Part shown: positions 162 through 49,329 of the stretch, one piece after another | How the letters are laid out: every line of letters starts with the position of its first letter | Numbering within the stretch: position 1 is the stretch's first letter | From: Xenophilus azovorans DSM 13620 | Lineage (GTDB): Bacteria > Pseudomonadota > Gammaproteobacteria > Burkholderiales > Burkholderiaceae_C | DNA: 64,000 nt | Reading direction: 5' to 3' | Assembly (NCBI RefSeq): GCF_000745855.1 | Contig: NZ_JQKD01000034.1 | Coordinates: forward strand, 1-64,000 | Position numbers and translations under genes: made by a program | Notes under the pieces: generated by a model | Told to the model about the DNA's origin: nothing | What the model saw: only the letters and a program-made list of their open reading frames with translations | The model's database searches: none

Positions 162-452
162 TCAGAAAACCAAAGGTGCGTTCAGATCGAGAACCGGCTT
201 GGCCCCGATGTGCTCTACCTTGCTCTGCCACTGTCTGCCCAGGTAGTAGAAGCGCAAACTGTCCTGGGTGGTGTCGATGATCTGCACCAGCCGGTGCTTC
301 AAGGCGACCCATTGCGCAGGGTCCACCTCGATCTCGAAGACGGAGAACTGTACCCGCTGTCCATAGTCCAGGCAGGCCCTGGCGATGCGTCGCAGCCGAC
401 GCGCGCCCGCCTTGTCCTGGGTGCTGACGTCATAGCTGACCAAGACCATCAT
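162..452 (-). CDS. cas2: CRISPR-associated endoribonuclease Cas2
   Basis: 96-aa ORF. N-terminus MMVLVSYDVS..AGARRLRRIARACLDYGQRVQFSVFE is typical Cas2. Last gene of the cas operon, 9 nt after cas1. Confidence 0.9.
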   Translation of the reverse strand: MMVLVSYDVSTQDKAGARRLRRIARACLDYGQRVQFSVFEIEVDPAQWVALKHRLVQIIDTTQDSLRFYYLGRQWQSKVEHIGAKPVLDLNAPLVF

Positions 453-461
453 GGGCGCACC

Positions 462-2146: not shown

Positions 2147-2171
2147 CGCCAGGCCCCTCGCGCAGGTGGCT

Positions 2172-3049
2172 TCAGATCAGCTCGCGCACCGTCACGCCGG
2201 CCGGAATGGCCGCGCGGTCGATGCTCACCTCATAGTCCGCATAGGCACGCGGTGCTGCGGCCTCGTCGCCCCGCGCGGGCTGCACCTTGACGGCGTCGAA
2301 CAGCACGTGCGCGGGTGCGTTGCCCATTGCGCTTTCGTGCTCGAACACGATGAGCTTGCGCGCGGCCATCTCGCCGCGGGCGGCGGAGCGATCGTGCTCG
2401 AACATGTTGATGAGCGCGCGCCAGAACAGATCGAGATCCTCGTTCGAGAAGCCCGTGCGCTCGGCCAGCTTGGCCGAGATGAAGCCATGAGCGCGGTACA
2501 GGCCATAGGGAATGATGTGCTTTCGGCCCATGGTGCGGTTGTCGCCGCTCTGGGCTTCAGCTTCCTTCTCGGTGGTCACGGCCATGCGGGTGATAGAAAT
2601 CTCCAGCGGCACCACCGGGTCGATGGAGGTGGCGAAAGCCATCTGGATCGGCCCGCGCACCTGGCCCGCGTTCACGCCCGTGGTCATCACGGCGCCGAAG
2701 CTGCGGATGTCGAAGAAGTTGGCGCACATCCAGGCCGTGATCTCGCGCGCCTTGTCCTTGTCCCTGGGCAGCTTCTTGTCCTCGGGCTTGACGTCGATGG
2801 CGTCATAAGCCTTGCGGTGCTGGTTGTTCAGGATCTCCTTTTCCTGCATGTAGATCGCGTAGCCTGCGGCACCCTCCTTGTCCAGGCTCACGAAGTTGCG
2901 GACCTTGCGCTTGAGGCACACGTCCGTGACGAGCCCTCGATTGGTCTCTGGGTCCAGGCGCGGTAGGTTGCCCGCGTCGGGGTCGCCGTTGGGGTTGCCG
3001 TTGGTGATGTCGAACAAGTAGACGAATTCGTAGCGATGGGCGATGGCGG

Positions 3050-3053
<4 letters not shown>
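2172..3053 (-). CDS. cas7: Type I-C Cascade backbone subunit Cas7c (Csd2)
   Basis: 293 aa. N-terminus [47 protein letters not shown] is a Csd2 hallmark. ATGA overlap with cas8c. Confidence 0.9.
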
Positions 3054-5562
<2,509 letters not shown>

Positions 5563-5584
5563 TCAGATGTTCGTTTACAAAATA

Positions 5585-16816: not shown

Positions 16817-16825
16817 GCGGCGGCG

Positions 16826-18964: not shown

Positions 18965-19102
18965 GCTGAGGCTCGCTTGCAAGGAATTTTTAGGGCCGGC
19001 GGGCGGGATGAAGGGCAGGAGCGAGGCGCTCTCAGGGCGATCGTGCGGCGGATGGCGGCACGGGTCGGCACCGGCCGGGCGGCCGGGTCGTCGTTCGGTG
19101 CA

Positions 19103-19747
19103 TCACGGTTCTCCCTCCATGGGTTGCACGAGATAGCGGCGCCGGGCCGCGTCGTAGTCCACGATCAGCGCCCGGCTGCCGCGGCGCAGCGGGTTGGGGC
19201 TGGGCGCCCACACCTGGATGAGGATGCCCGCGCCGCGCTGCGCCACTTCGGCATGGCCCTCTCTCTCGTCGACCACGCCGGTGGTGATTGTGCAGGGCTG
19301 GCCGATCAGGTCGCTGTTCTGGCGGGCGTATTGCGTCACGAAGGCGCCGCGCAAGGGGCGCACCAGCCGCGCCGCGATCACGATGGACAGCGCGAAGCAG
19401 GCCGCGAGCACCACCAGCCCCGCCACGACCTGCAGCGCCAGCGTGGGCACCCAGGCCAGCAGCCAGATGCCGGCCAGCGTGCTGAGCGTCCAGCCGATCA
19501 CCACCAGCAGCGTGACCACGATGGAGAAGGGCACGCCGGACAGGCCGAAGGCCACCACGTAGCCGGCGATGGCGCCCAGGTCGTCCGCGCTCGCGTCGGC
19601 GTGCTGGGCGATGTCCAGGTCGATGCTGCTCTCGCCGAAGTCGACCAGGCCCACGATGGCGGCGATCCAGTAGACCAGCATCACCGCCAGCAGCAGGCTG
19701 TAGATGAATGTGGGAAAGCCGAAGACGACGGAGAGGAATTCGCGCAT
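19103..19747 (-). CDS. NfeD/YqiJ-like inner-membrane protein (membrane anchor + C-terminal OB-fold)
   Basis: 214 aa. Multiple TM helices, C-terminal soluble beta-rich domain (GQPCTITTGVVDEREGHAEVAQRGAGILIQVW). Upstream partner of flotillin, as in yqiJK/yuaF-floT pairs. Confidence 0.65.
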   Translation of the reverse strand: MREFLSVVFGFPTFIYSLLLAVMLVYWIAAIVGLVDFGESSIDLDIAQHADASADDLGAIAGYVVAFGLSGVPFSIVVTLLVVIGWTLSTLAGIWLLAWVPTLALQVVAGLVVLAACFALSIVIAARLVRPLRGAFVTQYARQNSDLIGQPCTITTGVVDEREGHAEVAQRGAGILIQVWAPSPNPLRRGSRALIVDYDAARRRYLVQPMEGEP

Positions 19748-19796
19748 GGTGCCCTTGTTCTTGTGAGGTGGCGAAGCGGGTTCGGCGGCCGGACGG

Positions 19797-20171
19797 TCAG
19801 CGTTTGCGCTTCCTGGCGGCCGGGCTGCGCGATGGGGCGCCTTGCGGCATGAAGTTGATCAGCTCGCGCGTGGCGGCCTCCTTGATGCCCAGCCGGTCTT
19901 CGGGAGACAGGCCGTAGCGCCGGGCCAGCAGCACGTAGTCGGACTCGTCCAGCGTGACGGTCAGGCGCGGCCGCTTGGGCTTGCCCGCCACCGGCAGGCC
20001 CAGCACGTGGCGGATCTGCGTGGAGGTGGACACGTTCTCGCGGAAGGCGGCGGCGCGGATCGCCTCCATCACCGCCTCCTCCACGTCGAAGGCCACCTGC
20101 ACGGCGCGCAGTGCCGATTCGGAGCCTTGCCAGCGGGCCGGTGTCTTTCGCTTCGTGCTGTTGTTGTCCAT
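19797..20171 (-). CDS. Small tandem ribbon-helix-helix-like protein (putative DNA-binding regulator)
   Basis: 124-aa ORF (MDNNSTKRKT...). It is the C-terminal in-frame portion of the artefactual track ORF 19797..21500. Two RHH-like repeats (RAVQVAFDVEEAVMEAIRAAA..STQIRHVL and RLTVTLDESDYVLLARRYGLSPEDRLGIKEAA). Basic C-terminus. Confidence 0.5.
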   Translation of the reverse strand: MDNNSTKRKTPARWQGSESALRAVQVAFDVEEAVMEAIRAAAFRENVSTSTQIRHVLGLPVAGKPKRPRLTVTLDESDYVLLARRYGLSPEDRLGIKEAATRELINFMPQGAPSRSPAARKRKR

Positions 20172-20242
20172 GTTGGTGACGTGCGTGTGACGCTGGATGC
20201 CGGGCGGCCCGGCCGCCGCGCGGGTCGGCCGGTGCGCGCCCT

Positions 20243-20968
20243 TCAGGCGGCGGGCGCGCCGCCGTCGCCTGTGCCTGCGGCGCGGCGCGCCCGCAGCCGC
20301 GCCATCACGGCCTCGGCGCGGCTCTTGTCGCTGTCGCCGATGCCGGCCGCGGCCAGTTCGTTCTCCAGTGCCTTGTGGCCGAACTCCTGGTCCAGTTCCT
20401 CGGCGGCGGCCATGCGGTCGGCCAGGTCCTCGTGGCGCTTCTTGATGCGGTCCAGCGATTCGCGCGCGCTCGTGAGCCTGGAGCCCGTGCTGCCGATGCT
20501 GTCCGAGATGCTCTGCGTGGCGCGGTACACGCTCTCGGTCGTCTTGGCGATGCCGATCTCGCGCTCGTGCTCGCGCACGCGCGCCTCGGCGCTGCGGATC
20601 AGGTCCTTGAGGCGGCCCACCTGCACGGCGAAGCCGGCGTGCGCCTGCGTCTGCACCTGCATCTCGCCCTCCAGCGCCGCCACCCGCTCGGCCACCTTCA
20701 GCGCCAGGCCCTCCTCGGTCTTGTCCAGGGCCTGCAGGGCCATGTCCTCGTGGCGGCGGATCTCGCCCTTGATGCGCTCGATGTCGCGCGCGGTCTGCAT
20801 CTCCTTGGCCATCACGGCCGTGAGTTCGGTCTTGGCCTCGGCGATGCTGGCCTTGGCGTCCACGATCTCCTGTTCGTAGATGCGCGTGGCGTTGTTGTCG
20901 ACCACGCTCTGGCCCAGTTCGCGGGCGCTGCCGCGTAGCAGGGTGACGAGTTTCTTGATGACGGTCAT
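20243..20968 (-). CDS. PspA/IM30 family protein (YjfJ-like; bacterial ESCRT-III superfamily)
   Basis: 241-aa all-helical protein. N-terminus MTVIKKLVTLLRGSARELGQSVVDNNATRIYEQEIVDAKASIAEAK matches the PspA/IM30 amphipathic start and coiled-coil. Confidence 0.85.
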   Translation of the reverse strand: MTVIKKLVTLLRGSARELGQSVVDNNATRIYEQEIVDAKASIAEAKTELTAVMAKEMQTARDIERIKGEIRRHEDMALQALDKTEEGLALKVAERVAALEGEMQVQTQAHAGFAVQVGRLKDLIRSAEARVREHEREIGIAKTTESVYRATQSISDSIGSTGSRLTSARESLDRIKKRHEDLADRMAAAEELDQEFGHKALENELAAAGIGDSDKSRAEAVMARLRARRAAGTGDGGAPAA

Positions 20969-21001
20969 GTTCGGCTCCTGTGTGGGTTCGGGGCGGGGAG
21001 G

Positions 21002-21418
21002 TCAGCGCAGGTAGTCGGCCAGCGCATCGAGGGCGTCGAGGGCGTTGTCGCTGAGCACGGCGACTTCGTGGGCCACGTCCTCGGCGCGCGCGCTGCGGGC
21101 CAGGGCGCCCGTGAGCACGTAGCGTTGGCCCACGCGGCCGAAGGACGACAGCGGCACCGACGGGTTCAGGTCCAGCAGGGCCTCGTGCAGCTCGGCGCGG
21201 CGGTCCGCGCGCACGTCCTCGTCGGTCCAGAGGTAGCACAGGCAGATCAACTGCGTGTCCGAGCAGGTCACGAAGATCGGCAGCTCGTCGCGCCCCTCGA
21301 TGCAGACCTGGATCACCGGCACCTCGCCGGCGATGGGCTGCAACTGCACACCGACGCCGCCCATCACGGCCGACGTCAGCGTGTCCAGGTTGCTGAGCTG
21401 ATGGAGCAGAACGGTCAT
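21002..21418 (-). CDS. YjfI-like DUF2170 family protein
   Basis: 138 aa, acidic, directly upstream of the PspA-family gene (yjfI-yjfJ-like pairing). AGGAGG RBS 6 nt before the ATG. Confidence 0.55.
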   Translation of the reverse strand: MTVLLHQLSNLDTLTSAVMGGVGVQLQPIAGEVPVIQVCIEGRDELPIFVTCSDTQLICLCYLWTDEDVRADRRAELHEALLDLNPSVPLSSFGRVGQRYVLTGALARSARAEDVAHEVAVLSDNALDALDALADYLR

Positions 21419-35806: not shown

Positions 35807-36757
35807 GTGCTTCACTTTTCCCCGCGATCTTCCTTGGCCGCGCCGAGCCCCCGCACCCTGCTGCGGCTGTCGGTGGCGGTGGCGCTGCTGACCATCGCCC
35901 TCAAGGGGGCCGCCGGCTGGATCACCCATTCGATGGGGCTGATCTCGGACGCGATGGAGTCCTTCGTCAACCTGGCCAGCGCCGTGTTCGCGCTGGCGAT
36001 GATCACCATCGCCAACCGGCCGGCGGACGAGGGCCATCCCTACGGCCACCACAAGGCCGAGTACTTCTCTTCCGGCTTCGAGGGCATCCTGATCATCGCG
36101 GCGGCGCTGGCCATCGGCTGGGCGGCGGTCGGCCGGCTGCTGGCGCCGCAGCCGCTGGAGCGGCTCGGCTGGGGCATGGCGCTGTCGGTGGCCAGCGCGG
36201 GGCTGAACGCGGCGCTGGCGCTGCTGATGCTCAAGGCGGCGCGGGTGCACCACTCCATCGCCCTGGAGGCCGACGGCCGGCACCTGATGACCGACGTGTG
36301 GACCTCGGCCGGCGTGCTGGTGGGGGTGCTGGCCGTGATGCTTACCGGCTGGCTGTGGCTGGACCCGTTGCTGGCGCTGGCCGTGGCGGCCAACATCGTG
36401 CGCGAGGGCGCGCGGCTGGTGTGGCGCTCCAGCCAGGGCCTGATGGACCACGCGCTGGAGCCGGCGCAGCAGGCCGCCATCCAGGCCGTGCTGGACCGCT
36501 TCGCCGCCGAAGCGCCGGACGGCGGCGTCCTGCGCTTCGACGACATCGCGACGCGGCGCTCGGGTCAGCGCCTCTTCGCCGACATCCACATGCACGTGCC
36601 GGGCCAGTGGACGCTCCAGCGCGCCGCCGGCCTGCGCGACGCGCTGGAGCAGGCGCTGATGGACGCCGTGCCGGGCTTGCGCGTCACGCTGCAACTGCTG
36701 CCGCTGGACATGGAGGCGCGCGCCGTGCAGGCCACTGGGGAAGGGGATACGCGATGA
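35807..36757 (+). CDS. Cation diffusion facilitator family transporter
   Basis: 316 aa, six TM segments, CDF motifs ([23 protein letters not shown]), C-terminal cytoplasmic domain. Confidence 0.8.
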
Positions 36758-39395: not shown

Positions 39396-39980
39396 TTGAT
39401 GATAGGCAAACTCACCGGCATCCTTGCCGAACGCAACCCGCCCCAGGTGGTGATCGACTGCCACGGCGTGGGCTACGAGGTCGACGTGCCGATGGGCACC
39501 TTCTACAACCTGCCGCCGGTGGGCGAGAAAGTGTCGCTGCTCACGCATTTCGTGGTGCGCGAGGATGCGCAGGTGCTCTACGGCTTCGGCACCGCCGCCG
39601 AGCGGGCGGCGTTTCGCCAGCTCATCAAGATCTCCGGCGTCGGGCCGCGCACCGCGCTGGGGGTGTTGTCGGGCATGAGCGTGAACGAGCTGGCGCAGGC
39701 CGTGTCGCTGCAGGAGCCGGGGCGGCTGGTCAAGATTCCGGGCATCGGAAAGAAGACCGCCGAACGGCTGCTGCTCGAACTCAAGGGGAAACTGGGCGAC
39801 ACCCTGGGCCAGGCTGCCGGACTGGCGCAGCCGGCCAGTGATGCGCAGGCCGACATCCTGCAGGCGCTGCTGGCGCTGGGCTACAGCGACAAGGAGGCGG
39901 CGGCCGCCCTCAAGGCCCTGCCCAAGGACGTGGGCGTGAGCGAAGGGATCAAGCTGGCGCTCAAGGCGCTGGCGAAGTAG
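39396..39980 (+). CDS. ruvA: Holliday junction DNA helicase RuvA
   Basis: 194 aa. [34 protein letters not shown] is the RuvA signature. Confidence 0.92.
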
Positions 39981-40001: not shown

Positions 40002-40211
40002 TCAATGCGGCAGGCAGGGCTCCACTACGGGGTGGGCCACCTCGCGGCCCATCATGGCGCGTGCATACAGGTAGTTGTGTCGCGACTGTTCGCTGAGCGC
40101 GTCCAGGTCCACCTCGCCGCTGGCGTCGCAGGGGAAGGCGTAGCCGCGCCCTTCGTTGAACAGCGAGCGGAAGCGCAGCTGGAAGTGCCGGGTATCGAGC
40201 AAGGTGTTCAT
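40002..40211 (-). CDS. Small conserved hypothetical protein (DUF)
   Basis: About 69 aa from the internal Met MNTLLDTRHFQLRFRSLFNEGRGYAFPCDASGEVD. Last gene of the lipid operon. Start uncertain. Confidence 0.4.
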   Translation of the reverse strand: MNTLLDTRHFQLRFRSLFNEGRGYAFPCDASGEVDLDALSEQSRHNYLYARAMMGREVAHPVVEPCLPH

Positions 40212-40375
40212 GGTCGTCGACCTCCTGCCAATGGGTCCGATGTCGCCCAATATGCGTCAGAACGGTCGACCATGGGCCATGTTGAAGGCCCGGCCTCCCA
40301 CAGGCCGGCTAAGCCGTGCGGTCTATCACGAAAAACAGGTGGCGATGTGGCGGCGATGCATCAGTACCGCGCGCA

Positions 40376-41311
40376 TCAAGGTACCCACCAGTAGCGCAGC
40401 GCGTGGAAGTAGATGGGCGCGGCGAAGATCACCGAGTCCAGCCGGTCGAGCATGCCGCCGTGACCCTCGATCATGGTGCCCCAGTCCTTGACGCCGCGGT
40501 CGCGCTTGATGGCGGACATCACCAGCCCGCCGAAGAAGCCCATGACGCAGATCATGAAGGCCATGAGCGCTGCCTGCCACGGCGTGAAGGGCGTCGCCCA
40601 CCACAGGGCCGCGCCCAGCAGCGTGGCGCTGGCCACGCCGCCGACCAGGCCTTCCCAGGTCTTGGAGGGCGACAGCTCCGGCGCCACCTTGCGCCGCCCG
40701 AGGAGCTTGCCCCACACGTACTGCAGAACGTCGCTGCCCTGCACCACGATGACGAGGAAGGCGATGAGCAGCAGGTTGCCGCCCTCGAAGCCGGGGATGT
40801 GCAGCGTCAGCAGCGCCGGAACGTGGCTGATGCAGAACACGCACACCATCAGGCCCCACTGCACTTTCGACGTGCGTTCCAGGAAGCGCTTGGTGTCGCC
40901 GCCCAGTGCCGAGAGGATGGGCAGAATCAGGAACACCTCCACCGGGATGAAGATGGCGAACATGCCGTACCACTCGATCCAGACGAGGAAGTACTGCACC
41001 GGCAGCGCGATGTAGAAGGCCGCCGCCATCGCCAGGTGGTCGCCGCGCCGCGTGTAGGTCAGGCTCATGAACTCACGCAGCGCGTAGAACGAGATCAGGT
41101 AGAACAGCACGATCACGCCGCCCTTGCCGAAGGCGAAGGCCAGGCCGATCACCGCCACCATCACCCACCAGGTATTGACGCGGGCGTTGAGGTTGTCGAT
41201 GACCGCGTGCGGGGCGCCGTGCGCGACGCGCCACTTGAGCAGCGCGCCAACGGCGGAGGCCAGGATCAGCACGCCGGCCACGCCGGCGAACAGGTGCAGG
41301 GTGGGGCTCAT
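40376..41311 (-). CDS. cdsA: Phosphatidate cytidylyltransferase (CDP-diacylglycerol synthase)
   Basis: Internal start MSPTLHLFAGVAGV. CTP_transf_1 C-terminal motif (SPSKTWEGLVGGV...MSAIKRDRGVKDWG..GHGGMLDRLDS). Confidence 0.82.
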   Translation of the reverse strand: MSPTLHLFAGVAGVLILASAVGALLKWRVAHGAPHAVIDNLNARVNTWWVMVAVIGLAFAFGKGGVIVLFYLISFYALREFMSLTYTRRGDHLAMAAAFYIALPVQYFLVWIEWYGMFAIFIPVEVFLILPILSALGGDTKRFLERTSKVQWGLMVCVFCISHVPALLTLHIPGFEGGNLLLIAFLVIVVQGSDVLQYVWGKLLGRRKVAPELSPSKTWEGLVGGVASATLLGAALWWATPFTPWQAALMAFMICVMGFFGGLVMSAIKRDRGVKDWGTMIEGHGGMLDRLDSVIFAAPIYFHALRYWWVP

Positions 41312-42006
41312 GATGCGCTCGCCTCCTCCTTGTCGTGCTCGGGCCGCAGGTCCAGCATCGCCTGCTGCGCCCGCGCCAGGAAGGCGGCCTTGTCCTCGCC
41401 CTCGGCCAGCGCGATGGGCGCGCCGTAACGCACCGAGCAGGCCAGCGGCACCGGGATGAGCTGGCCCTTGGGCAGCACGCGCTTGAGGTTCTCGATCCAC
41501 ACCGGCACCAGCCGCACCTGCGGGCAGGCGCGGGCGATGTGGAACAGCCCGCTCTTGAGCGGCAGCATCACCTCCTCGCCGGTGTTGCGCGTGCCCTCCG
41601 GGAACATGATCAGCGAGTCGCCCGACTGCAGCGCCTGCACCATCTGGTCGACCGGGTTGGGGCCGTCGCCGCTGCCGTCGCGGCGGATCATCAGCGCGTT
41701 GAACACGTCCTGCCCGATGAAGCGCCGCGCCTTCGATGCCAGCCAGTAGTCCTGCCCGGCGACGGGGCGTGTGAGGGAGCGCAGGTCGGGCGGCAGCGTG
41801 GCCCACAGCAGCACGAAGTCGCCGTGGCTGGAGTGGTTGGCGAAGTACAGGGTCTGGTCGGCCACCGGCGCGGAGCCGCTCCAGACGGCGCGCACGCCGG
41901 TCAGCAGCTTGGCGATGAAGACGATCAGGCGCGCGGCGGCGAAGGTGCCGGCCCGGCGCAGCAACTCGCGCGGCGGCGGGGCGTCGGAGGTGAAGGCGTC
42001 GGTCAT
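41308..42006 (-). CDS. Lysophospholipid (1-acyl-sn-glycerol-3-phosphate) acyltransferase family protein
   Basis: 232 aa. Acyltransferase HX4D motif (NHSSHGDF) and FPEGTR motif. Confidence 0.75.
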   Translation of the reverse strand: MTDAFTSDAPPPRELLRRAGTFAAARLIVFIAKLLTGVRAVWSGSAPVADQTLYFANHSSHGDFVLLWATLPPDLRSLTRPVAGQDYWLASKARRFIGQDVFNALMIRRDGSGDGPNPVDQMVQALQSGDSLIMFPEGTRNTGEEVMLPLKSGLFHIARACPQVRLVPVWIENLKRVLPKGQLIPVPLACSVRYGAPIALAEGEDKAAFLARAQQAMLDLRPEHDKEEASAS

Positions 42007-42443
42007 GGGAAGGCGAGGCGGGCCGCGATGGCGGCGAGGAAGACGAGACTTTGCACGGCCACGATGCTCGCATGCCCGCGCACCAGCCGGCGCGTGCCGC
42101 GCAGGCGGTCGGCCAGGGGCCGCGTTCCGCCTTCGGGCGCGGTGCGCAGGCCGATGTGCGCGAGCGAGCGGTCCAGCGCCGCGAGGTCCGCGATGCGACC
42201 GGCGGCCAGGGCGTCGAAGAGCCGCTGGTCCAGGCGCAGCCGGAAGGCCAGGTAGCGCTCCGGCAGGCCCAGCAGCGCCGCGGCCGACAGAAGCAGGGCG
42301 GCCGCCCCCGGAGCGGGAACGAAGCACAGCGCGGCCAGCGCCAGGGCCGAGAGCCACAGGCTCCACCGGGCCAGCGTGTCCTGGCCGGCCAGCAGCGCGG
42401 CGAGCGCGGCGCAATCGGCGCGGTCCTGCGTGTCCAGGCTCAT
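42003..42443 (-). CDS. Hypothetical membrane protein
   Basis: 146 aa, two predicted TM helices. 4-nt overlaps on both sides within the lipid operon. Confidence 0.45.
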   Translation of the reverse strand: MSLDTQDRADCAALAALLAGQDTLARWSLWLSALALAALCFVPAPGAAALLLSAAALLGLPERYLAFRLRLDQRLFDALAAGRIADLAALDRSLAHIGLRTAPEGGTRPLADRLRGTRRLVRGHASIVAVQSLVFLAAIAARLAFP

Positions 42444-43768
42444 GATGCGGGGCCCTTCCCGGTCCACGCCGAGCCCAGCATGTCGCGCCAGGCGGGACGC
42501 AGCACGATCTGCGGGCGTACCTGCCGCACGGCGGCTTCCGCGCCGGCCAGGTCGGCCGTCGTGCCATGCCGTCGCAGCCAGCCGACCAACGTGGCGGCGC
42601 TGCGCGAGAAGCCCAGCGCACAGCAGACCCAGACCGGGCCGCCGCGGCGCTGGCCTTCCAGCACGGCAACGGCGCGGCGCAACTGCGCCGGCGAGGGCAT
42701 CGCCAGATCCAGCATCGGCACGCAGCGTGCGTGCGGCACGGGGGGCAGCTGCAGTTCGGCGCACAGGCTCAGCAGGCGCGGCCGGCCGGCCGCTTCCCAC
42801 TCGGCCCGCGAGGGCAGGCGGCCCAGCCGCACGCCCGGCACCACCTCCGCGCTGGGCGGCAGCCGGCGCGTCCAGGCCCAGGCGTTGACGGCCGCGCCGA
42901 GGCGGTAGGGCGCGAACAGCCAGCGCGCCGACCAGTGCATGCGTCCCCGTGCGTCCATGGCGAAGCCGCGTGCGCCGAAGCCGGCGTAGTTGAGCGCCAC
43001 CAGCATCAGCGAGGCGGCGGGCCAGCCCAGCCACAAGGCGGCTCCGCCGCCGTACAGGCCCAGCGCCAGACAGGCGACCGCGCCGAGCGCATAGGCGGCG
43101 GCCAGCTTCCAGCGCTGCGGATCGCGCGCCAGCCGCCAGGCGCGCGGCAGCGCCACGCGGCGCTCCAGCGGCCACAGCCACACGCACACGAGGCCGAGCA
43201 GGGCGCCGGTCGGGATGTCGATGAAATGGTGCTGCCAGGTCGTCAGCACCGAGCCGCAGATGGCCAGCGCCCACAGATGCAGCACGGCGCGCGCCCAGCG
43301 GGCGGTGATCAGCCGCCGGTACCAGTCCCACAGGATCACGGCCAGCGCGATGTGCAGCGAGGGCGCCTGGTTGAAGGGCCTGTCGAAGCCGCGCAGCGCC
43401 TCGAACAGGAAGGCCGGGGCGCCGCTCACCGCGGGCTGGCCGAAGCTGAAGGCGAGCGGCCACAGCACGAAGCAGGTGACGGCCAGCGCCTGCGCCGTCA
43501 GCAGCCGTGCCGCGTGCCGGTCCACCAGGTGTTTGGTGCGGCCAAGGAAGAGCGAGAGCGCGTAGAAGGCATTGATCGACCAGTAGGGAAAGATCGTCCA
43601 CGCCCAGAAGGGCATGCCGCGCTCCCACTCGAACACGACCGAGGGCACCTGCGCCCGCGTGCCGGCCCACCAGTTCGCCAGGCCGTAGCTCAGGTAGAAC
43701 AGCGGCCCGAGCAGCGCCAGCCACGCGGCGGCGCGCTTCCAGGGGCGCGGCGGGGCAGGGCGCGTCAT
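42440..43768 (-). CDS. PAP2 phosphatase / dual-specificity phosphatase fusion protein
   Basis: N-terminal polytopic PAP2 region (PSLHIALAV, HHFIDI). C-terminal DSP-like catalytic loop (VCCALGFSRSA). Confidence 0.65.
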   Translation of the reverse strand: MTRPAPPRPWKRAAAWLALLGPLFYLSYGLANWWAGTRAQVPSVVFEWERGMPFWAWTIFPYWSINAFYALSLFLGRTKHLVDRHAARLLTAQALAVTCFVLWPLAFSFGQPAVSGAPAFLFEALRGFDRPFNQAPSLHIALAVILWDWYRRLITARWARAVLHLWALAICGSVLTTWQHHFIDIPTGALLGLVCVWLWPLERRVALPRAWRLARDPQRWKLAAAYALGAVACLALGLYGGGAALWLGWPAASLMLVALNYAGFGARGFAMDARGRMHWSARWLFAPYRLGAAVNAWAWTRRLPPSAEVVPGVRLGRLPSRAEWEAAGRPRLLSLCAELQLPPVPHARCVPMLDLAMPSPAQLRRAVAVLEGQRRGGPVWVCCALGFSRSAATLVGWLRRHGTTADLAGAEAAVRQVRPQIVLRPAWRDMLGSAWTGKGPAS

Positions 43769-45543
43769 CGCTCCACGCGCTGCGCCAGCGAGACGGTGAA
43801 GATGCCCCACTCGTCCACCCGCTGCGCGACCTTGCGGAAGCCCGCTTCTTCCACGAGCTGGTCCATCTCGGCCTGCGTGCGCCGGCGCATCACCCAGGCC
43901 TGGCCCTGGCGATGGCTGGTGAGGGCGCGGGCGATCATCTCGAGCTGCGGGTGCCAGGGCTGGCCGGTGTAGACCAGCCAGCCGCCGTCCTCCACCGCGT
44001 CGCCGACGCCGGCCAGCGAGCGGCGCACCATCTCGTTGTCGGGGAACAGCTCGTACAGGCCCGAGACCACCGCCAGCGTGGGGCGCGGCATCACGCTGGC
44101 CAGGCTGACGCGGTCGAAGGCATCGGCCTGCACGAACTGCGCGCGGTCCTGCAGGCCGCGCTCGGCGATCAGATGCTGGCCGTCGCGCACGTTGATGTCG
44201 CTGTAGTCGCGCAGCAGGATGGACTGCGCCTTCACCGGGCTGGCGGCCACCGCGTCGAGCACGTAGCGGCCGTGGCCGGCGGCGATGTCCATCACCCGCA
44301 CCTCGCGCTGGGCGGCGGCCAGGCGCTCCATCGCCTCGCGCAGCAGCTCCTCCACGTGCAGCTTGCGCTGGCGGATGCCGCGCCAGCCGATGGAGTCGAG
44401 GTACGTGCGGTCGACCAGCTTGCCGACCAGCGGCGCGCCGGCGGCCTCGTTGCGGTAGACGTAGTCCAGCGTGCTGCCTGAGTCGAAGCCCGTCTCGTGC
44501 CCCAGCGCGATGCCGCGCGAGAGCTTGCCGCCGAGCTTCAGCCCGGCCCGCGTGAACGTCCAGTACGCGCCGCGCGGCGACAGCGGTGCGAGCGGCTCGG
44601 CCAGCGCGCGCGACTCGTCGGCGGTGGCGCCGGCCTTGTCCGCCTCGCGCAGGTCGACCGGTTCGGGCGGCGTGTCGAACAGCTTCAGGATGAAGGCGCG
44701 TACCGACTGCACCGCCGGCGCGCGGTCGCGCTCGCCCAGGGTGTCGTGGAAGAAGCCGGGCAGTTCGATCTTCTCCTTGACGCGGCTGCCCAGGCGCTCG
44801 AAGAAGGCGTGCTGCGGCTTGTGGTGCACCACCCAGTCGGCGCCGGAGATGAGCAACTGCGTCGGCAGCACGATGGCGTTGGCGTCCTGCACCACGCGCT
44901 CGGCCGTCTCGTACAGGTCGAGCAGGATGTTGACGGCGATCGGCCGGGTGATCAGCGGATCGCTGTCGTAGCTGGCGATGCGCTCGGGGTCGTGCGTGAG
45001 GAACTTCGCCTTCACGTAGCTGTTGACGAAGAACAGGCCCCGCAGCTTGTGCATCAGCGCCAGGCCGGGCCGTGCGAAGGGCACGTACAGCTTGACCTTG
45101 AAGGCGGGGGAGGCGAGGGTGAGGCCGCGCACCTTCGGCGCGTAGTCGTGCGCCCAGGTCGAGACCAGCACCGCGCCCACGCTCTGCGCCACGACATGGA
45201 TGTCTTCTTCGGCGATGCCGTGCTGCGTGCCGATGTGCTCGATGAAGGTCTGCACGTCGCGCGCCGAGTGCGCGAAGCTCGGGCTGTATCCGCGCTGGCC
45301 CGGCGAGCGGCCGTGGCCGCGGGCGTCCCAGGCGAAGAAGTCGAAGTCCGGCAGGTCCAGCTCGTCCACCAGGTGCGCCATGCGCGCGCCGTGCTCGTGG
45401 CCGCGGTGGAACAGCACCACCGCGCCGCGGCGCGCGGGGCCGGCGGCCGGCCAGTGCCGGTAGAACAGCGATTCGCCGTCGTGCGTGCGGAAGTGCAGCT
45501 CGTCGGCCGTGCGGGAAGAAGAGGAGGTCATGGTGTGGTTCAT
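43765..45543 (-). CDS. Bifunctional alpha/beta-hydrolase / class I SAM-dependent methyltransferase
   Basis: N-terminal alpha/beta-hydrolase ([10 protein letters not shown] nucleophile elbow). C-terminal methyltransferase ([11 protein letters not shown]). 592 aa. Confidence 0.65.
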
Positions 45544-45550
45544 CGTCGGA

Positions 45551-46171
45551 TCAGCGCGGCGCCGCCTCGGCCAATGCGGCGCGCACGCGGCGAACCGTCG
45601 TCCAGCCCACCAGGGCGGCCACCAGCGGCATCAGCGCGGCCGTCCAGTCCGGCAGCGGCCCGCCCAGGGCGATGTACAGCCCGAGCGCGCCAAAGACGAA
45701 GGCGCGGTCGCTCTTGCCCATCGGGCCGTCGTAGCGGCGGCTGGCGCCCACGCTCGGCCCCAGGGCGCCGGCGAACTCGGACAGACCGGCCAGCACGATC
45801 ACCGCGCCGACCCAGAAACCGCCGTGGGGCGACAGCGCCGCGAAGTACGTGGCGAAGGGCAGGTACAGCGCCGCGTCGGACAGCACGTCCGTCAGTTCGT
45901 TGAGGAAGGCGCCCAGGCGGCTTTGCTGGCCGTGCTCGCGCGCGAGCATGCCGTCCACCGCGTTGAAGGCCATGCGAAGGAACATCCACAGCGGCACCAT
46001 GGCGAAGGCGTCGGGGCTCGGCTCGGCGAAGAAGAGCCAAAGGCCCAGCGCCACGGAGATCGCGCAGGCGGCCACGGTGACCTGGTTGGCCGTGACGCCG
46101 GCAGTGGCCAGGCGGCGCACCAGCGGCCGCAGCAGAGCCTGGAAGCGGGGTTTGAGCTGGTAGATCGACAA
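45551..46171 (-). CDS. CDP-alcohol phosphatidyltransferase family protein
   Basis: Polytopic. CDP-OH_P_transf-like motif ([26 protein letters not shown]). Start assigned to an in-frame TTG (..SIYQLKPRF), so the start is uncertain. Confidence 0.6.
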
Positions 46172-46348
46172 GATGGATGGGCGCGGCGGGCGCGCGGAAG
46201 GGCGACGGGCGGGATTCTGCCTATCGGCCCGGGCGCCCCCGCCCATGCCCTGCCAAGTATTGCCGCTTCCGGCAGGCGGTATCGCCTGGTGCACCCGCGC
46301 GGCCTGTCCGGCGACGCCCACCTACAATCCGGCGCTTCGCACCGCGCC

Positions 46349-47413
<1,065 letters not shown>

Positions 47414-47429: not shown

Positions 47430-48380
47430 ATGGCGGCCATGCACACGCACGACCTCGGCCCCTGGCAGCACAGCCACCAGTTCGACACCGGCAACGCTTC
47501 CGCGGAGCGCAGCACGCGCCTGGTGATGTGGATCACCGCCGTGGCGATGGTGGCGGAGATCGCGGCCGGCTGGTGGTTCAACTCGATGGCGCTGCTGGCC
47601 GACGGCTGGCACATGAGTTCGCACGCCGTGGCCATCGGCCTGAGCGCCTTCGCCTATGCGGCCGCGCGCCGCTACGCGAAGGACTCGCGCTTCGCCTTCG
47701 GCACCTGGAAGATCGAGGTGCTGGCCGGCTACAGCAGCGCGCTGTTCCTGGTCGGCGTGGCCGTGCTCATGGTGGCGGGCTCGCTGGAGCGGCTGTGGTC
47801 GCCGCAGCCCATCCACTACCGCGAGGCGGCGGCCGTCGCCGTGCTGGGGCTGCTGGTCAACCTGCTGAGCGCGCGGCTGCTGGCCGGGCATCACGCTCAT
47901 CACCACGGCCACGATCATCACCACGACGGCCACGCGCATCACGGCCATGACCTCAACCTGCGCTCGGCCTACCTGCACGTCGTCGCCGACGCGGCGACCT
48001 CGGTGCTCGCCATCGCAGCCCTGCTGGGCGGCTGGTTCTTCGGCTGGCGCTGGCTCGACCCGGCGATGGGCCTGGTGGGCGCCGCGCTGGTGGCGTGGTG
48101 GGCCAAGGGCCTGCTGGCGGAAACCGGCAAGGTGCTGCTGGACCGCGAGATGGATCATCCGGTCACCGACGAGATCCGCCAGGGCATCGAGGCGGGCCTG
48201 GCCGATTCCGAGACGCGCGTGGCCGACCTGCACGTCTGGCGCGTGGGCCGCGAGGCCTATGCCTGCGCCGTCACCGTCGTCACGCATTCAACCGTGCTCA
48301 CGGCCGACGAGGTGCGCGCCACCTTCGCCATGCACGAGGAGATCCGCCACTCGACCGTGGAGATCCAGCGCTGCGGCTGA
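47430..48380 (+). CDS. CDF family heavy-metal efflux transporter (CzcD/ZitB-like) with His-rich loop
   Basis: Six TM segments. HHAHHHGHDHHHDGHAHHGHD loop. CDF signature LADGWHMSSHA. Confidence 0.8.
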   Translation: MAAMHTHDLGPWQHSHQFDTGNASAERSTRLVMWITAVAMVAEIAAGWWFNSMALLADGWHMSSHAVAIGLSAFAYAAARRYAKDSRFAFGTWKIEVLAGYSSALFLVGVAVLMVAGSLERLWSPQPIHYREAAAVAVLGLLVNLLSARLLAGHHAHHHGHDHHHDGHAHHGHDLNLRSAYLHVVADAATSVLAIAALLGGWFFGWRWLDPAMGLVGAALVAWWAKGLLAETGKVLLDREMDHPVTDEIRQGIEAGLADSETRVADLHVWRVGREAYACAVTVVTHSTVLTADEVRATFAMHEEIRHSTVEIQRCG

Positions 48381-48462: not shown

Positions 48463-49329
48463 ATGCAACGCGACGACGCTTTCCTGCGCGCCTGGCGCGA
48501 CAACGCGGCCCGGCTGCTCGACACCGGCGACGAGGGCGGGGACGCGCGTCCGCCGCAGCGCTACCGCACGCTGTGGATCTCCGACCTGCATCTGGGCACG
48601 CCGGGCTGCCAGGCCCATGCGCTGCTCGACTTCCTGAAGCACACCGAGAGCGACACGCTGTTCCTGGTCGGCGACATCATCGACGGCTGGCAGCTCAAGC
48701 GGCACTGGTACTGGCCGCAGGCGCACAACGACGTCATCCAGAAGCTGCTGCGCAAGGCGCGCAAGGGCACCCGCGTGGTCTTCGTGCCGGGCAACCACGA
48801 CGAGTTCGCGCGCAAGTACCTGCACCACAACTTCGGCGGCATCGACGTGGCCGAGGAGTGGATCCACGAGACCGCCGACGGTCGCAAGCTGTGGGTGATG
48901 CACGGCGACCTGTTCGATGGCGTCATCCAGTGCGCCAAGTGGCTGGCCTACGTGGGCGATTCGCTCTACGAGTTCACGCTCAAGCTCAACCGGCACCTGA
49001 ACTCGCTGCGCGCGCGCATGGGACTGCCGTACTGGTCGCTGTCGAAGTACCTCAAGGGCAAGGTCAAGCGCGCCGTGAGCTACGTGGGCGACTTCGAGGC
49101 CGCCGTGGCGCGCGAGGCGCACAAGCGCGGCGTGCAGGGCGTGGTGTGCGGGCACATCCACCACGCCGAGATGCGCGAGATCGACGGCATCCTCTACTGC
49201 AACGACGGCGACTGGGTCGAGAGCCTCACGGCGCTGGCCGAGCATGCCGACGGCCGGCTGGAGATCATCGACTGGGCGCAGCGCATGCGCGCCGGGCTGC
49301 CGCAGCAGGCGGCGAGCCAGGGCGCCTGA
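48463..49329 (+). CDS. lpxH: UDP-2,3-diacylglucosamine diphosphatase family metallophosphoesterase
   Basis: Trimmed to MQRDDAF. LpxH-type motifs WISDLHLG, GDIIDGW, GNHDE. Confidence 0.65.
   Translation: MQRDDAFLRAWRDNAARLLDTGDEGGDARPPQRYRTLWISDLHLGTPGCQAHALLDFLKHTESDTLFLVGDIIDGWQLKRHWYWPQAHNDVIQKLLRKARKGTRVVFVPGNHDEFARKYLHHNFGGIDVAEEWIHETADGRKLWVMHGDLFDGVIQCAKWLAYVGDSLYEFTLKLNRHLNSLRARMGLPYWSLSKYLKGKVKRAVSYVGDFEAAVAREAHKRGVQGVVCGHIHHAEMREIDGILYCNDGDWVESLTALAEHADGRLEIIDWAQRMRAGLPQQAASQGA

What the first reader, a model, noticed from the sequence alone, without database searches (positions are those of the whole stretch)
40002..46171. Phospholipid-modification operon: CDP-alcohol phosphatidyltransferase, hydrolase-methyltransferase fusion, PAP2-DSP fusion, membrane DUF, PlsC-like acyltransferase, CdsA, small DUF
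The encoded chemistry is consistent with one pathway: CDP-DAG synthesis (CdsA), head-group transfer (CDP-alcohol phosphatidyltransferase), head-group phosphate removal (PAP2 fused to a dual-specificity phosphatase domain), acyl remodelling (PlsC-like), and a SAM-dependent methylation fused to an alpha/beta hydrolase. This looks like a dedicated route to an unusual, possibly methylated or inositol/glycerol-type, phospholipid rather than housekeeping lipid synthesis. Both fusions (PAP2+DSP; hydrolase+methyltransferase) are uncommon.
Basis: inference. Interest (0 to 1): 0.55.

Follow-up and report, generated by a model that had tools for sequence, protein, structure and literature searches.

The report
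ynbABCD-type orphan phospholipid gene cluster
This is a real six-gene operon, the betaproteobacterial counterpart of E. coli's poorly understood ynbABCD genes, which probably makes a minor and still unidentified membrane lipid; it is common in bacteria, so the find is ordinary, though the lipid it makes remains an open question.

Summary
The genes and domain calls are correct. Six minus-strand genes (40376-46171) are translationally coupled. The 69-aa ORF is a real gene but a lineage-specific neighbour, not a conserved member.

The cluster is the counterpart of E. coli K-12 ynbABCD: YnbA 44 %, YnbB 39 %, YnbC 59 % and YnbD 39 % identity, all full length. It carries two extra genes, a PlsC-like acyltransferase and a small membrane protein I call X.

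Both fusions are widespread and have standard RefSeq names, so they are not uncommon. The same six genes occur in 70 of 80 sampled genomes, including Comamonadaceae, Pseudomonas, Cupriavidus, Rhodocyclales and Acidobacteria. Fusobacterium keeps only A+B+C.

The CdsA-like gene is the non-housekeeping YnbB type. Published work shows YnbB makes CDP-DAG but cannot supply bulk phospholipid. It also shows YnbD cannot replace PGP or C55-PP phosphatases.

All catalytic motifs are intact. One exception stands out: the YnbA-type transferase invariably has Asn at two "absolutely conserved" metal-binding Asp positions.

A dedicated, non-housekeeping lipid pathway is supported. Its product remains unknown. 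This is a new member of a known but uncharacterised kind, of moderate-to-low interest.

The parts
45551..46171 (-). YnbA-type CDP-alcohol phosphatidyltransferase, 206 aa. TTG start preferred; alternative ATG at 46246. Carries the variant signature N70-x2-D73-G-x2-A-R78 ... G87-x3-N91-E-x2-D95.
   Evidence: PF01066 8.6e-11. 44 % identity over the full length to E. coli YnbA. Best PDB relatives are PIP synthases 6h5a/6h53/5d92. Asn at positions D1 and D3 is invariant in 81/81 family members and is also seen in Fusobacterium.
43765..45543 (-). YnbC-type bifunctional protein, 592 aa. N-terminal monoacylglycerol-lipase-like serine hydrolase (Ser121-Asp236-His266). C-terminal class I SAM methyltransferase (Methyltransf_20, motif D419-IAAGHG).
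   Evidence: PF12146 8e-69 and PF12147 2e-151. 59 % identity over 581 aa to E. coli YnbC. PDB monoacylglycerol lipases down to 8.6e-22. Catalytic residues invariant in 83 sequences. The methyltransferase (MT) domain model matches only generic small-molecule MTs.
42440..43768 (-). YnbD-type membrane protein, 442 aa. Eight-helix PAP2-like domain (His139; His180/His181/Asp184; no C1 motif; C3 Arg replaced by Val174). Fused to a cytoplasmic dual-specificity-phosphatase domain (Asp354, Cys383-x5-Arg389).
   Evidence: 39 % identity over 433 aa to E. coli YnbD. Weak PF14378, PF01569 and PF00782 hits. Motifs invariant in 75 sequences. The C3 motif aligns to human phospholipid phosphatase 1. The AF2 DSP domain matches DUSPs with target-normalised TM 0.7-0.79.
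42003..42443 (-). 'X': a small, fast-evolving membrane protein of 146 aa with no Pfam family. Always found directly after the YnbD-type gene. Conserved core ERYxAxRLxxDxxLF ... LGL ... RxxGxxxL plus a C-terminal transmembrane helix.
   Evidence: No Pfam or NCBIfam hit even at E=10. Only 26 word-indexed homologues. Iterative HMM search finds it immediately downstream of D in 73 loci, including Pseudomonas, Cupriavidus, Acidobacteria and Burkholderia.
41308..42006 (-). PlsC-like lysophospholipid acyltransferase, 232 aa, with H58-x4-D63 and FPEGTR motifs. Always adjacent to the YnbB-type gene. Absent from the E. coli chromosomal operon.
   Evidence: PF01553 1e-18. TIGR00530 scores 47.8, below its cut-off of 102.95. 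Motifs invariant in 68 sequences. The P-B pair is conserved.
40376..41311 (-). YnbB-type CDP-diacylglycerol synthase paralogue, 311 aa. Complete SxxKR-x4-KD ... HGG-x2-DRxD active-site signature.
   Evidence: PF01148 4e-69. PRK11624 scores only 90 bits against a cut-off of 385. Full-length 39 % identity to YnbB, 187 bits, against only the C-terminal 119 aa to CdsA, 95 bits. Signature invariant in 75 sequences.
46172..46348 (.). 177-bp divergent intergenic region between the cluster and ruvB (46349-47413, +). Presumed promoter region of the operon.
   Evidence: Coordinates. No sigma-70 consensus was found. Its role as a promoter is inferred from position only.
40002..40211 (-). 69-aa ORF next to the cluster. 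It is a real gene of a widespread unnamed small-protein family but NOT a conserved member of the cluster.
   Evidence: GC3 0.87-0.9 and a GGAGG ribosome-binding site. 1011 representative clusters at E<=1e-3. No tblastn hit in 81 related loci. The exact protein is found only in near-identical contigs, at the same position. No Pfam hit.

Best explanation
The locus is the orthologue of the E. coli ynbABCD operon in its fuller six-gene form. It is a self-contained, non-housekeeping pathway that makes a minor, specialised glycerophospholipid from its own pool of CDP-diacylglycerol. The genes fall into three modules that stay paired in every arrangement seen.

(1) Supply module, PlsC-like + YnbB-type. 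Acylation of a lyso-precursor to phosphatidic acid is inferred. Conversion of phosphatidic acid to CDP-DAG is shown in vitro for E. coli YnbB.

(2) Head-group module, YnbA-type + YnbC-type. YnbA transfers the phosphatidyl group from CDP-DAG to a soluble acceptor. The acceptor is probably anionic or phosphorylated. This is inferred from kinship with inositol-phosphate-type synthases and from a metal site that has lost two carboxylates. YnbC then methylates the product and/or removes an ester or acyl group. The order of its two activities and its substrates are unknown.

(3) Processing module, YnbD-type + X. The cytoplasmic DSP domain removes a phosphate from the lipid head group, as PTPMT1 does for PGP. 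The PAP2-like site on the periplasmic face hydrolyses or transfers a phospho-head group after the lipid has flipped. X is a partner subunit. All of module (3) is inferred.

The final product has not been identified in any organism.
For: Orthology:
- Full-length BLASTP to YnbA, YnbB, YnbC and YnbD, with the E. coli annotation.

Functional linkage:
- Four ATGA overlaps between consecutive genes.
- All six genes are present in 70 of 80 sampled genomes.
- The gene set persists through different orders and strands: Comamonadaceae and Pseudomonas A-C-D-X-P-B; Acidobacteria P-B-A-C-D-X; Burkholderia B<-P<- ->A->C->D->X; E. coli A-B-C-D; Fusobacterium C-A-B.
- No other neighbour is conserved across genera.

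Not housekeeping:
- Equivalog scores are far below cut-off.
- Only the C-terminal half resembles CdsA. This matches the published description of YnbB, which makes CDP-DAG in vitro, is non-essential and cannot replace CdsA for bulk phospholipid (PMC6362211; PMC7018664).

All enzymes look active:
- Catalytic residues are invariant in 68-83 sequences per family.

Acceptor type:
- Closest families are archaetidylinositol-phosphate and PIP synthases.
- The KSDR equivalent of the RxxR acceptor motif is invariant (PMC4634129).

Topology of YnbD:
- K+R-rich loops alternate with K+R-poor loops that carry the C2 and C3 motifs.
Against: - No lipid product is known for any ynb cluster. No paper on YnbA or YnbC function was found.
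- In E. coli, deleting ynbB gives no phospholipid phenotype, and a strain lacking all four PAP2 proteins including YnbD is viable. The pathway may therefore be silent or conditional.
- The YnbA-type enzyme lacks two Asp residues described as absolutely conserved. Whether it still uses CDP-DAG is unproven.
- YnbD is missing in Fusobacterium and one Dechloromonas locus, so dephosphorylation by YnbD is not obligatory.
- The membrane domain of the YnbD model has low confidence around the active site.
- The MT fold search is not diagnostic.
- The whole genome could not be inspected for the housekeeping cdsA.
Confidence: 0.6

Rival explanations
1. The cluster makes, or backs up synthesis of, a pyrophosphate-linked glycolipid precursor of the MPIase type (GlcNAc-PP-DAG). 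The YnbB/YnbA pair would condense CDP-DAG with a sugar-1-phosphate, and the PAP2-like domain would handle the pyrophosphate lipid.
For: - E. coli YnbB over-production raises MPIase. It restores MPIase, but not phospholipids, when CdsA is depleted. It is cold-induced together with cdsA (PMC6362211; PMC7018664; PMC11413397).
- A phosphate nucleophile would fit a YnbA active site with two fewer carboxylates (inference).
- PAP2 enzymes typically act on pyrophosphate lipids (PMC7413402).
Against: - Deleting ynbB leaves the MPIase level unchanged. The authors assign the condensation to CdsA/YnbB themselves, not to YnbA.
- YnbD does not complement C55-PP phosphatase loss.
- No glycosyltransferase is in or near the cluster in any genus.
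- The MPIase glycan is ECA-like. To my own knowledge ECA is confined to Enterobacterales, whereas the cluster spans Beta-, Gamma- and Alphaproteobacteria, Acidobacteria and Fusobacteria.
- This model gives no role to the methyltransferase or lipase.
Confidence: 0.13
2. It is a bacterial phosphatidylinositol route. YnbA would be a PIP synthase using inositol-1-phosphate, and the DSP domain of YnbD would be the long-sought PIP phosphatase.
For: - Best NCBIfam hits are archaetidylinositol-phosphate synthase (72 bits) and PIP synthase (58 bits).
- Best PDB hits are mycobacterial and Renibacterium PIP synthases.
- A phosphatase is encoded in the same operon.
- The PIP phosphatase was described as unidentified in PMC4634129.
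Against: - Scores are far below the equivalog cut-offs of 180 and 170.
- D1 and D3 of the signature are Asn. The residue after D4 is Val or Ile, where PgsA1 has Arg94, which is critical for inositol-phosphate binding.
- No inositol-phosphate synthase is in the window or in the flanks of 80 loci.
- E. coli K-12 carries the operon but, to my own knowledge, has no inositol lipids or ino1.
Confidence: 0.07
3. It is a lipid turnover or remodelling (salvage) unit rather than a route to a new lipid. The lipase domain would deacylate damaged or foreign lipids. PlsC-like and YnbB would then re-acylate and re-activate the backbone, and the phosphatases would recycle head groups.
For: - The hydrolase domain is closest to monoacylglycerol lipases and lysophospholipases.
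- A lipase together with an acyltransferase is the classic deacylation-reacylation pair.
- The E. coli operon is conditionally expressed, being BglJ-RcsB-activated (PMC3950696) and cold-induced.
Against: - Salvage does not explain the strictly conserved methyltransferase fused to the lipase.
- It does not explain a dedicated head-group transferase with its own variant active site.
- The minimal conserved core (A+B+C) is biosynthetic in logic: activation, transfer, modification.
Confidence: 0.12
4. It is a redundant housekeeping-type phosphatidylglycerol pathway (CdsA + PgsA + PGP phosphatase + PlsC).
For: Same enzyme superfamilies as the PG pathway. The DSP-family enzyme PTPMT1 is the mitochondrial PGP phosphatase (own knowledge), with a weak PDB hit to 3rgo.
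Against: - pgsA models score 17-23 bits against cut-offs of 109 and 304. The cdsA model scores 90 against 385. The plsC model scores 25 against 501.
- YnbB cannot support bulk phospholipid synthesis.
- YnbD over-expression does not rescue a pgpA pgpB pgpC mutant.
- The genomic context is not uppS-cdsA-rseP-bamA.
Confidence: 0.03

Closest known systems
Escherichia coli K-12 ynbABCD operon (b1408-b1411)
   Same: All four proteins are full-length homologues: YnbA 44 %, YnbB 39 %, YnbC 59 %, YnbD 39 %. Both domain fusions are the same. YnbA has the same variant Asn/Asn signature. The CdsA paralogue has the same YnbB-type N-terminal half.
   Different: - Gene order is A-C-D-X-P-B instead of A-B-C-D.
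- Two extra genes, a PlsC-like acyltransferase and small membrane protein X, are absent from the E. coli chromosome.
- Here the cluster sits between ruvA and ruvB.
- The E. coli operon itself is only partly characterised. YnbB is linked to MPIase. YnbD was tested and found not to be a PGP or C55-PP phosphatase. YnbA and YnbC are unstudied.
Actinobacterial/archaeal (archaetidyl)inositol-phosphate synthases (PgsA1/PIPS, AIPS), class I CDP-alcohol phosphotransferases
   Same: Six-helix size class (~200 aa). Best sequence and PDB matches. D2, G, A, R, G and the catalytic base D4 are retained. There is a KxxR equivalent of the RxxR acceptor motif.
   Different: - D1 and D3, metal ligands called absolutely conserved (PMC4634129, PMC6506517), are Asn in every YnbA-type protein.
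- Arg94, next to D4, is Val or Ile.
- Scores are below the equivalog cut-offs.
- No inositol-phosphate synthase is nearby.
PAP2 lipid phosphatases (PgpB, LPP1) and PAP2_3-type phospho-head-group transferases (sphingomyelin/IPC synthases)
   Same: C2 (PSxH) and C3 (S-x6-H-x3-D) His/His/Asp core. The predicted active site is on the outer face of the membrane.
   Different: - There is no Kx6RP C1 motif.
- The C3 Arg is Val. From my own knowledge, this reduced pattern is typical of the transferase branch rather than of hydrolases. It was not tested structurally here because the model is poor in this region.
- The domain is fused to a cytoplasmic DSP domain.
- E. coli YnbD lacks PgpB's activities in vivo.
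PTPMT1 / DUSP-type Cys-x5-Arg phosphatases
   Same: DSP fold with target-normalised TM 0.7-0.79 to DUSP28, DUSP5, DUSP23 and Tk-PTP. Invariant Cys383-x5-Arg389 and the general-acid Asp354. There is a weak hit to PTPMT1, 3rgo.
   Different: The domain is tethered to an eight-helix membrane domain. Its substrate is unknown. The link to lipid phosphate is by analogy only.
Monoacylglycerol lipases / lysophospholipase L2 (Hydrolase_4)
   Same: Ser-Asp-His triad and HG oxyanion motif. PDB hits down to 8.6e-22. Weak PldB hit.
   Different: It is permanently fused to a Methyltransf_20 domain that has no sequence relative in the PDB. The nucleophile motif is AQSVG rather than GxSxG.

Membership tests
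ynbABCD-type cluster (E. coli b1408-b1411) | YnbA-type ~200-aa CDP-alcohol phosphatidyltransferase | tested here: met
   44 % identity over 204 of 206 aa, E 5e-49. Shares the family-specific N..N signature.
ynbABCD-type cluster (E. coli b1408-b1411) | YnbB-type CdsA paralogue: C-terminal half like CdsA, N-terminal half not | tested here: met
   Full-length alignment to YnbB, 187 bits. Only residues 185-301 align to CdsA, 95 bits. Matches the description in PMC6362211.
ynbABCD-type cluster (E. coli b1408-b1411) | YnbC: alpha/beta hydrolase fused to Methyltransf_20 | tested here: met
   59 % identity over 581 aa. PF12146 + PF12147.
ynbABCD-type cluster (E. coli b1408-b1411) | YnbD: PAP2-like membrane domain fused to a DSP domain | tested here: met
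   39 % identity over 433 aa, E 8e-85. Motifs. DSP fold.
ynbABCD-type cluster (E. coli b1408-b1411) | The genes form one operon | tested here: met
   Same strand, with ATGA overlaps. The order differs from E. coli, and two extra genes are present.
Housekeeping CDP-diglyceride synthase CdsA | Reaches the NCBIfam equivalog PRK11624 cut-off | tested here: not met
   90.4 bits against a cut-off of 385.
Housekeeping CDP-diglyceride synthase CdsA | uppS(ispU)-cdsA-rseP-bamA genomic context | tested here: not met
   E. coli context. In the window the neighbours are a PlsC-like gene and ruvA. None of those genes occurs in the 64 kb.
Housekeeping CDP-diglyceride synthase CdsA | Being the only cdsA of the genome | not testable with these tools
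Class I CDP-alcohol phosphotransferases (canonical) | Signature D1xxD2GxxAR...GxxxD3xxxD4 with eight absolutely conserved residues | tested here: not met
   Six of eight are kept. D1 is N70 and D3 is N91, invariant in 81/81. Definition from PMC4634129 and PMC6506517. The Pfam PF01066 domain is still matched.
Phosphatidylinositol-phosphate synthase (PIPS/PgsA1) | Equivalog score and inositol-phosphate-binding Arg next to D4 | tested here: not met
   NF045883 scores 58 against a cut-off of 170. The position after D4 is Val or Ile in 81/81, against Arg94 in PgsA1.
Phosphatidylglycerophosphate synthase PgsA | TIGR00560 / PRK10832 equivalog score | tested here: not met
   23.4 against 109.1, and 17.4 against 304.
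PAP2 lipid phosphate phosphatases | Three motifs: C1 Kx6RP, C2 PSGH, C3 SRx5Hx3D | tested here: not met
   The His of C2 and the His and Asp of C3 are invariant. C1 is absent and the C3 Arg is Val174. Pfam scores of 20-21 bits are below the cut-offs of 27.
Dual-specificity (Cys-x5-Arg) phosphatases | Cx5R P-loop, general-acid Asp, DSP fold | tested here: met
   C383-ALGFS-R389 and D354 are invariant in 75 sequences. Foldseek probability 1.0, target-normalised TM 0.7-0.79. The Pfam score of 21 is below the cut-off of 33.5.
LPLAT/PlsC acyltransferases | HX4D and FPEGTR motifs; PF01553 | tested here: met
   H58-SSHG-D63 and F135-PEGTR are invariant in 68 sequences. PF01553 scores 67.7 against a cut-off of 23. 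It is not the housekeeping PlsC: PRK15018 scores 25.5 against 501.
MPIase biosynthesis pathway | Production of GlcNAc-PP-DAG / MPIase | not testable with these tools
   This is a biochemical property. Only the E. coli literature bears on it.

The most novel reading that the evidence does not exclude
The YnbA-type enzymes are a distinct clade of CDP-alcohol phosphotransferases. Their invariant Asn-for-Asp changes at two metal ligands reflect different chemistry. One possibility is transfer of the phosphatidyl group to an anionic nucleophile such as a phosphate monoester, giving a pyrophosphate-linked lipid. Another is an acceptor that itself supplies metal ligands.

In this reading, the fused methyltransferase/esterase (YnbC) installs and later removes a transient methyl ester, as BioC and BioH do in biotin synthesis. 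The six-gene cluster would then make a lipid class not yet described in bacteria. That would also explain why YnbB appears in the unresolved MPIase story.
Probability: 0.25. Interest if true: 0.7.

Novelty: new member of a known kind. Interest (0 to 1): 0.3.

Why it matters
ynbABCD is one of the remaining lipid-gene sets of unknown function in E. coli K-12. The same core is widely conserved and under strong purifying selection: YnbC is 59 % identical between E. coli and this betaproteobacterium, and 70 % identical to Pseudomonas.

Showing that the commonest form has six genes, and that they fall into three fixed modules (P-B, A-C, D-X), gives a more complete parts list for heterologous expression and lipidomics. 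The transferase's altered metal site adds a specific biochemical question.

Identifying the product would fill a gap in bacterial membrane-lipid biochemistry. It could also clarify the disputed biosynthesis of MPIase. The window itself adds only another copy of this cluster.

Tried and rejected
- Pfam, NCBIfam and PDB sequence searches gave nothing for X or the 69-aa ORF.
- A profile search of the MT domain against the PDB gave only chance-level hits.
- Foldseek with the AF2 model of the MT domain gave generic small-molecule MTs with TM 0.45-0.6, best 3ocj of unknown function. This is not diagnostic.
- The AF2 model of YnbD has pLDDT below 50 around the PAP2 active-site loops. Only the DSP domain gave fold matches, so the phosphatase-versus-transferase question for the membrane domain could not be settled. 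The profile search found only the C3 helix of LPP1.
- Clustering of about 1470 flanking ORFs from 81 loci found no further gene conserved across genera.
- The promoter/terminator scan found no promoter-like site and only one terminator-like site, which lies inside the transferase gene and is fewer than the shuffles give. The hairpin after the cdsA-like stop is no more stable than shuffled sequence, z -0.74. I therefore make no claim of a terminator.
- Literature searches for PF12147/Methyltransf_20, ynbABCD, and YnbA/YnbC function found no functional study. One query was rejected for syntax.
- My ruvB query was out of frame. Its hits mark the ruvB position through DNA conservation only. ruvB was confirmed properly by Pfam and in L002.
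- The seven-gene operon reading was rejected because the small ORF is absent from relatives.
- Housekeeping PG synthesis was considered and rejected.

Full report
OBSERVATION

The window has about 70 % G+C, so raw ORF lists are crowded. Third-codon-position GC (GC3) picks out seven minus-strand genes between 40002 and 46171, each with GC3 of 0.87-1.0.

Start-codon inspection shows tight coupling. The stop of the hydrolase-methyltransferase gene overlaps the start of the PAP2-DSP gene in an ATGA. The same overlap joins PAP2-DSP to the 146-aa gene, the 146-aa gene to the acyltransferase, and the acyltransferase to the cdsA-like gene. The transferase gene ends 7 nt before the hydrolase-methyltransferase start. 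The 69-aa ORF lies 165 nt beyond the cdsA-like stop and has its own GGAGG site.

The 146-aa and 69-aa proteins match nothing, even at E=10. The one refinement is that the unit is six coupled genes plus a neighbour.

WHAT IT IS

The cluster is the counterpart of the E. coli K-12 ynbABCD operon (NC_000913 1477621-1482201). Pairwise BLASTP gives full-length matches:
- transferase to YnbA: 44 % identity, 5e-49
- cdsA-like to YnbB: 39 %, 3e-62
- hydrolase-methyltransferase to YnbC: 59 % over 581 aa
- PAP2-DSP to YnbD: 39 %, 8e-85

Against the housekeeping E. coli CdsA, only the last 119 residues align, at 95 bits. This is exactly how the literature describes YnbB (PMC6362211). Both 'uncommon' fusions are thus present in the best-studied bacterium. 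They also carry standard RefSeq names: 'bifunctional alpha/beta hydrolase/class I SAM-dependent methyltransferase' and 'phosphatase PAP2/dual specificity phosphatase family protein'.

DISTRIBUTION AND ANATOMY

The 80 best loci were fetched. The closest are a Xylophilus ampelinus isolate (YnbC 91 %, YnbB-type 94 %) and Xenophilus.

In Comamonadaceae the cluster always lies between ruvB and ruvA, divergent from ruvB, with phoH-ybeY beyond ruvA, as in the window. tblastn with the window proteins shows the order A-C-D-X-P-B in Comamonadaceae, many Pseudomonas, Cupriavidus, Zoogloea, Azonexus, Parachitinimonas and Steroidobacteraceae. An acidobacterial MAG has P-B-A-C-D-X.

Other arrangements also occur:
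- A Burkholderia ambifaria replicon has two divergent units, B<-P<- and ->A->C->D->X.
- An E. coli IncF plasmid carries B-P-C.
- A Dechloromonas locus has A-C-B.
- Fusobacterium has C-A-B only.

The small membrane protein X evolves fast. It is about 46 % identical within the family and about 40 % to Pseudomonas. An iterative HMM search nevertheless finds it directly after the YnbD-type gene in 73 loci. Seventy of the 80 genome loci contain all six genes. Seven of the other ten are contigs truncated within the cluster; one (L036) has an ambiguous CdsA-like hit; one (L038) lacks X; and one (L042) lacks D, X and P.

No other neighbouring gene is shared across genera. The functional unit is therefore a core of A+B+C, usually extended by D+X and P. 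Three pairs never separate wherever both partners are present: P-B, A-C and D-X. E. coli is the one exception for A-C, having B between them. Median identity of the window proteins to Pseudomonas is C 70, B 69, A 58, P 57, D 49 and X about 40 %.

The 69-aa ORF has no counterpart in any of the 81 related loci. In Variovorax KK3 only 124 bp separate the YnbB-type gene from ruvA. The ORF does belong to a large unnamed small-protein family, with 1011 representative clusters. Its exact sequence recurs only in near-identical contigs, at this same spot. It is a lineage-specific resident, not a pathway member.

ACTIVE SITES

Alignments of 68-83 family members show that every catalytic motif is invariant:
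- YnbB-type: S266-x2-KR-x4-KD ... HGG-x2-DRxD.
- PlsC-like: H58-x4-D63 and FPEGTR.
- YnbC-type hydrolase: Ser121 (AQSVG), Asp236, His266 and the HG motif. The closest solved relatives are monoacylglycerol lipases, down to 8.6e-22.
- YnbC-type methyltransferase: D419-IAAGHG, D446 and D474.
- YnbD-type DSP: Asp354 and Cys383-x5-Arg389. The AF2 model of this domain superposes on DUSPs with target-normalised TM 0.7-0.79.
- YnbD-type PAP2-like domain: His139 of C2 and His180/His181/Asp184 of C3.

The PAP2-like domain has no Kx6RP C1 motif, and the C3 Arg is Val174. Loops rich in Lys and Arg alternate with poor ones that carry C2 and C3. By the positive-inside rule, this places the PAP2-like site on the periplasmic face and the DSP domain in the cytoplasm. 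This topology is an inference.

The most unexpected detail concerns the YnbA-type transferase. The class I signature D1xxD2GxxAR...GxxxD3xxxD4 is described as eight absolutely conserved residues. D1-D3 ligate the two Mg ions and D4 is the catalytic base (PMC4634129, PMC6506517). In all 81 YnbA-type sequences, including E. coli, D1 and D3 are Asn (N70 and N91). The same holds in Fusobacterium. D2, G, A, R, G and D4 are kept.

Two further positions bear on the acceptor. The residue after D4 is Arg94 in M. tuberculosis PgsA1 and is critical for inositol-phosphate binding; here it is Val or Ile. The RxxR acceptor motif appears here as an invariant KSDR.

The nearest families are still archaetidylinositol-phosphate synthase and PIP synthase, but their scores are far below equivalog cut-offs.

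The methyltransferase domain has no sequence relative in the PDB, even with a profile. Its AF2 model resembles generic small-molecule O-/C-methyltransferases, which does not identify a substrate.

WHAT IS KNOWN

E. coli YnbB makes CDP-DAG in vitro and is non-essential. It cannot replace CdsA for bulk phospholipid. When over-produced it raises or restores the glycolipid MPIase, and it is cold-induced. Its deletion alone changes neither phospholipids nor MPIase (PMC6362211, PMC7018664, PMC11413397).

The ynbA promoter is activated by BglJ-RcsB (PMC3950696).

YnbD was recognised as the fourth membrane PAP2 of E. coli. Over-expressed, it complements neither C55-PP-phosphatase-deficient nor pgpA pgpB pgpC strains. 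[quoted passage not shown]

A ynbC transposon mutant accumulated polyphosphate in one strain background only (PMC2435150).

A 2026 comparative-genomics paper lists the same gene set in Pseudomonas protegens as a 'membrane phospholipid remodelling/biogenesis module', without experiments (PMC13541209).

I found no study of YnbA or YnbC function, or of the six-gene form.

MOST LIKELY MECHANISM

Shown:
- The six genes form one coupled operon and are orthologous to ynbABCD.
- They are conserved as a set.
- All catalytic residues are intact.
- The cdsA-like gene is the YnbB type.

Shown elsewhere:
- YnbB makes CDP-DAG but not bulk lipid.
- YnbD is not a PGP or C55-PP phosphatase.

Inferred:
- The P-B pair supplies a private CDP-DAG pool.
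- YnbA transfers the phosphatidyl group to a soluble, probably anionic or phosphorylated, acceptor.
- YnbC methylates the product and/or removes an ester or acyl group.
- The cytoplasmic DSP domain of YnbD removes a head-group phosphate.
- The outward-facing PAP2-like site hydrolyses or transfers a phospho-head group after flipping, with X as its partner.

The product is unknown. I put 0.6 on this pathway-level reading and about 0.95 on the orthology.

RIVALS

- An MPIase-type pyrophosphate glycolipid route (0.13). It fits the YnbB literature and perhaps the altered metal site. Against it: there are no glycosyltransferases, it gives no role to YnbC, and the taxonomic spread is far beyond Enterobacterales.
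- A phosphatidylinositol route (0.07). It fits the best hits. Against it: it fails the signature and Arg94 tests, no inositol-phosphate synthase is nearby, and E. coli carries the operon without, to my knowledge, inositol lipids.
- A salvage or remodelling role (0.12). It does not explain the fused methyltransferase or the dedicated transferase.
- A redundant PG pathway (0.03). The scores and the E. coli complementation data contradict it.

NOVELTY AND INTEREST

The locus is another member of a known, routinely annotated but functionally orphan cluster.

As far as my searches show, three points are new, and they are incremental:
- The prevalent form has six genes in three fixed modules.
- X is a constant partner of YnbD.
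- YnbA-type enzymes carry an invariant Asn/Asn variant of the 'absolutely conserved' signature.

I score interest at 0.3. If the variant active site reflects new chemistry and a new lipid class (probability about 0.25), the interest would be about 0.7.

LIMITS

- Only 64 kb of the genome is visible, so the presence of a canonical cdsA elsewhere is inferred, not shown.
- The YnbD membrane-domain model is poor at the active site.
- Identity figures come from tblastn segments.

Noticed in passing
window 39396-39980 (ruvA, +) and 46349-47413 (ruvB, +): ruvA and ruvB, usually adjacent in one operon, are split by the 6.4-kb ynb-type cluster on the opposite strand. The same split is seen in Variovorax, Xenophilus, Xylophilus and Pseudacidovorax, so it is an old, stable feature of this part of the Comamonadaceae.
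   Followed up: partly
window 40002-40211 (-): The 69-aa protein (MNTLLDTRHFQLRFRSLF...FPCDASGEVDLDALSE...) belongs to a large, unnamed small-protein family. It has 1011 representative clusters at E<=1e-3 and 421 at E<=1e-10, with no Pfam or NCBIfam model. Function unknown. It was inserted here only in this lineage.
   Followed up: partly
window 162-7792 (-): A complete type I-C CRISPR-Cas gene set: cas3 (5585-7792), cas5d, csd1/cas8c, cas7, cas4, cas1 and cas2 (162-452). Any repeat array would lie at or beyond the left edge of the window. I did not look for it.
   Followed up: no
window 11252-21418 (-): A gene string of unknown function. It comprises an 1854-aa DUF3686/DUF7902 AAA-type ATPase, a 718-aa protein, 214-aa and 101-aa proteins with no Pfam match, a PspA/IM30 homologue and a DUF2170 protein. 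There are no PADLOC defence-system hits. It could be a membrane-stress or defence-related module.
   Followed up: partly
L084 (E. coli IncF plasmid pFHI_NMBU_11_02, NZ_CP045714.1 27830-31145): A conjugative E. coli plasmid carries a partial second ynb-type set: YnbB-type, PlsC-like and YnbC-type genes in the order B-P-C. These are distinct from the chromosomal ynbABCD, which shows that the module can move horizontally.
   Followed up: no
window 47430-48380 (+), 35834-36757 (+), 48463-49329 (+): Two cation-diffusion-facilitator transporters flank the region, one of them with a His-rich loop. A calcineurin-like metallophosphoesterase follows ruvB. These are conserved neighbours in Variovorax but are not linked to the cluster in other genera.
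   Followed up: partly
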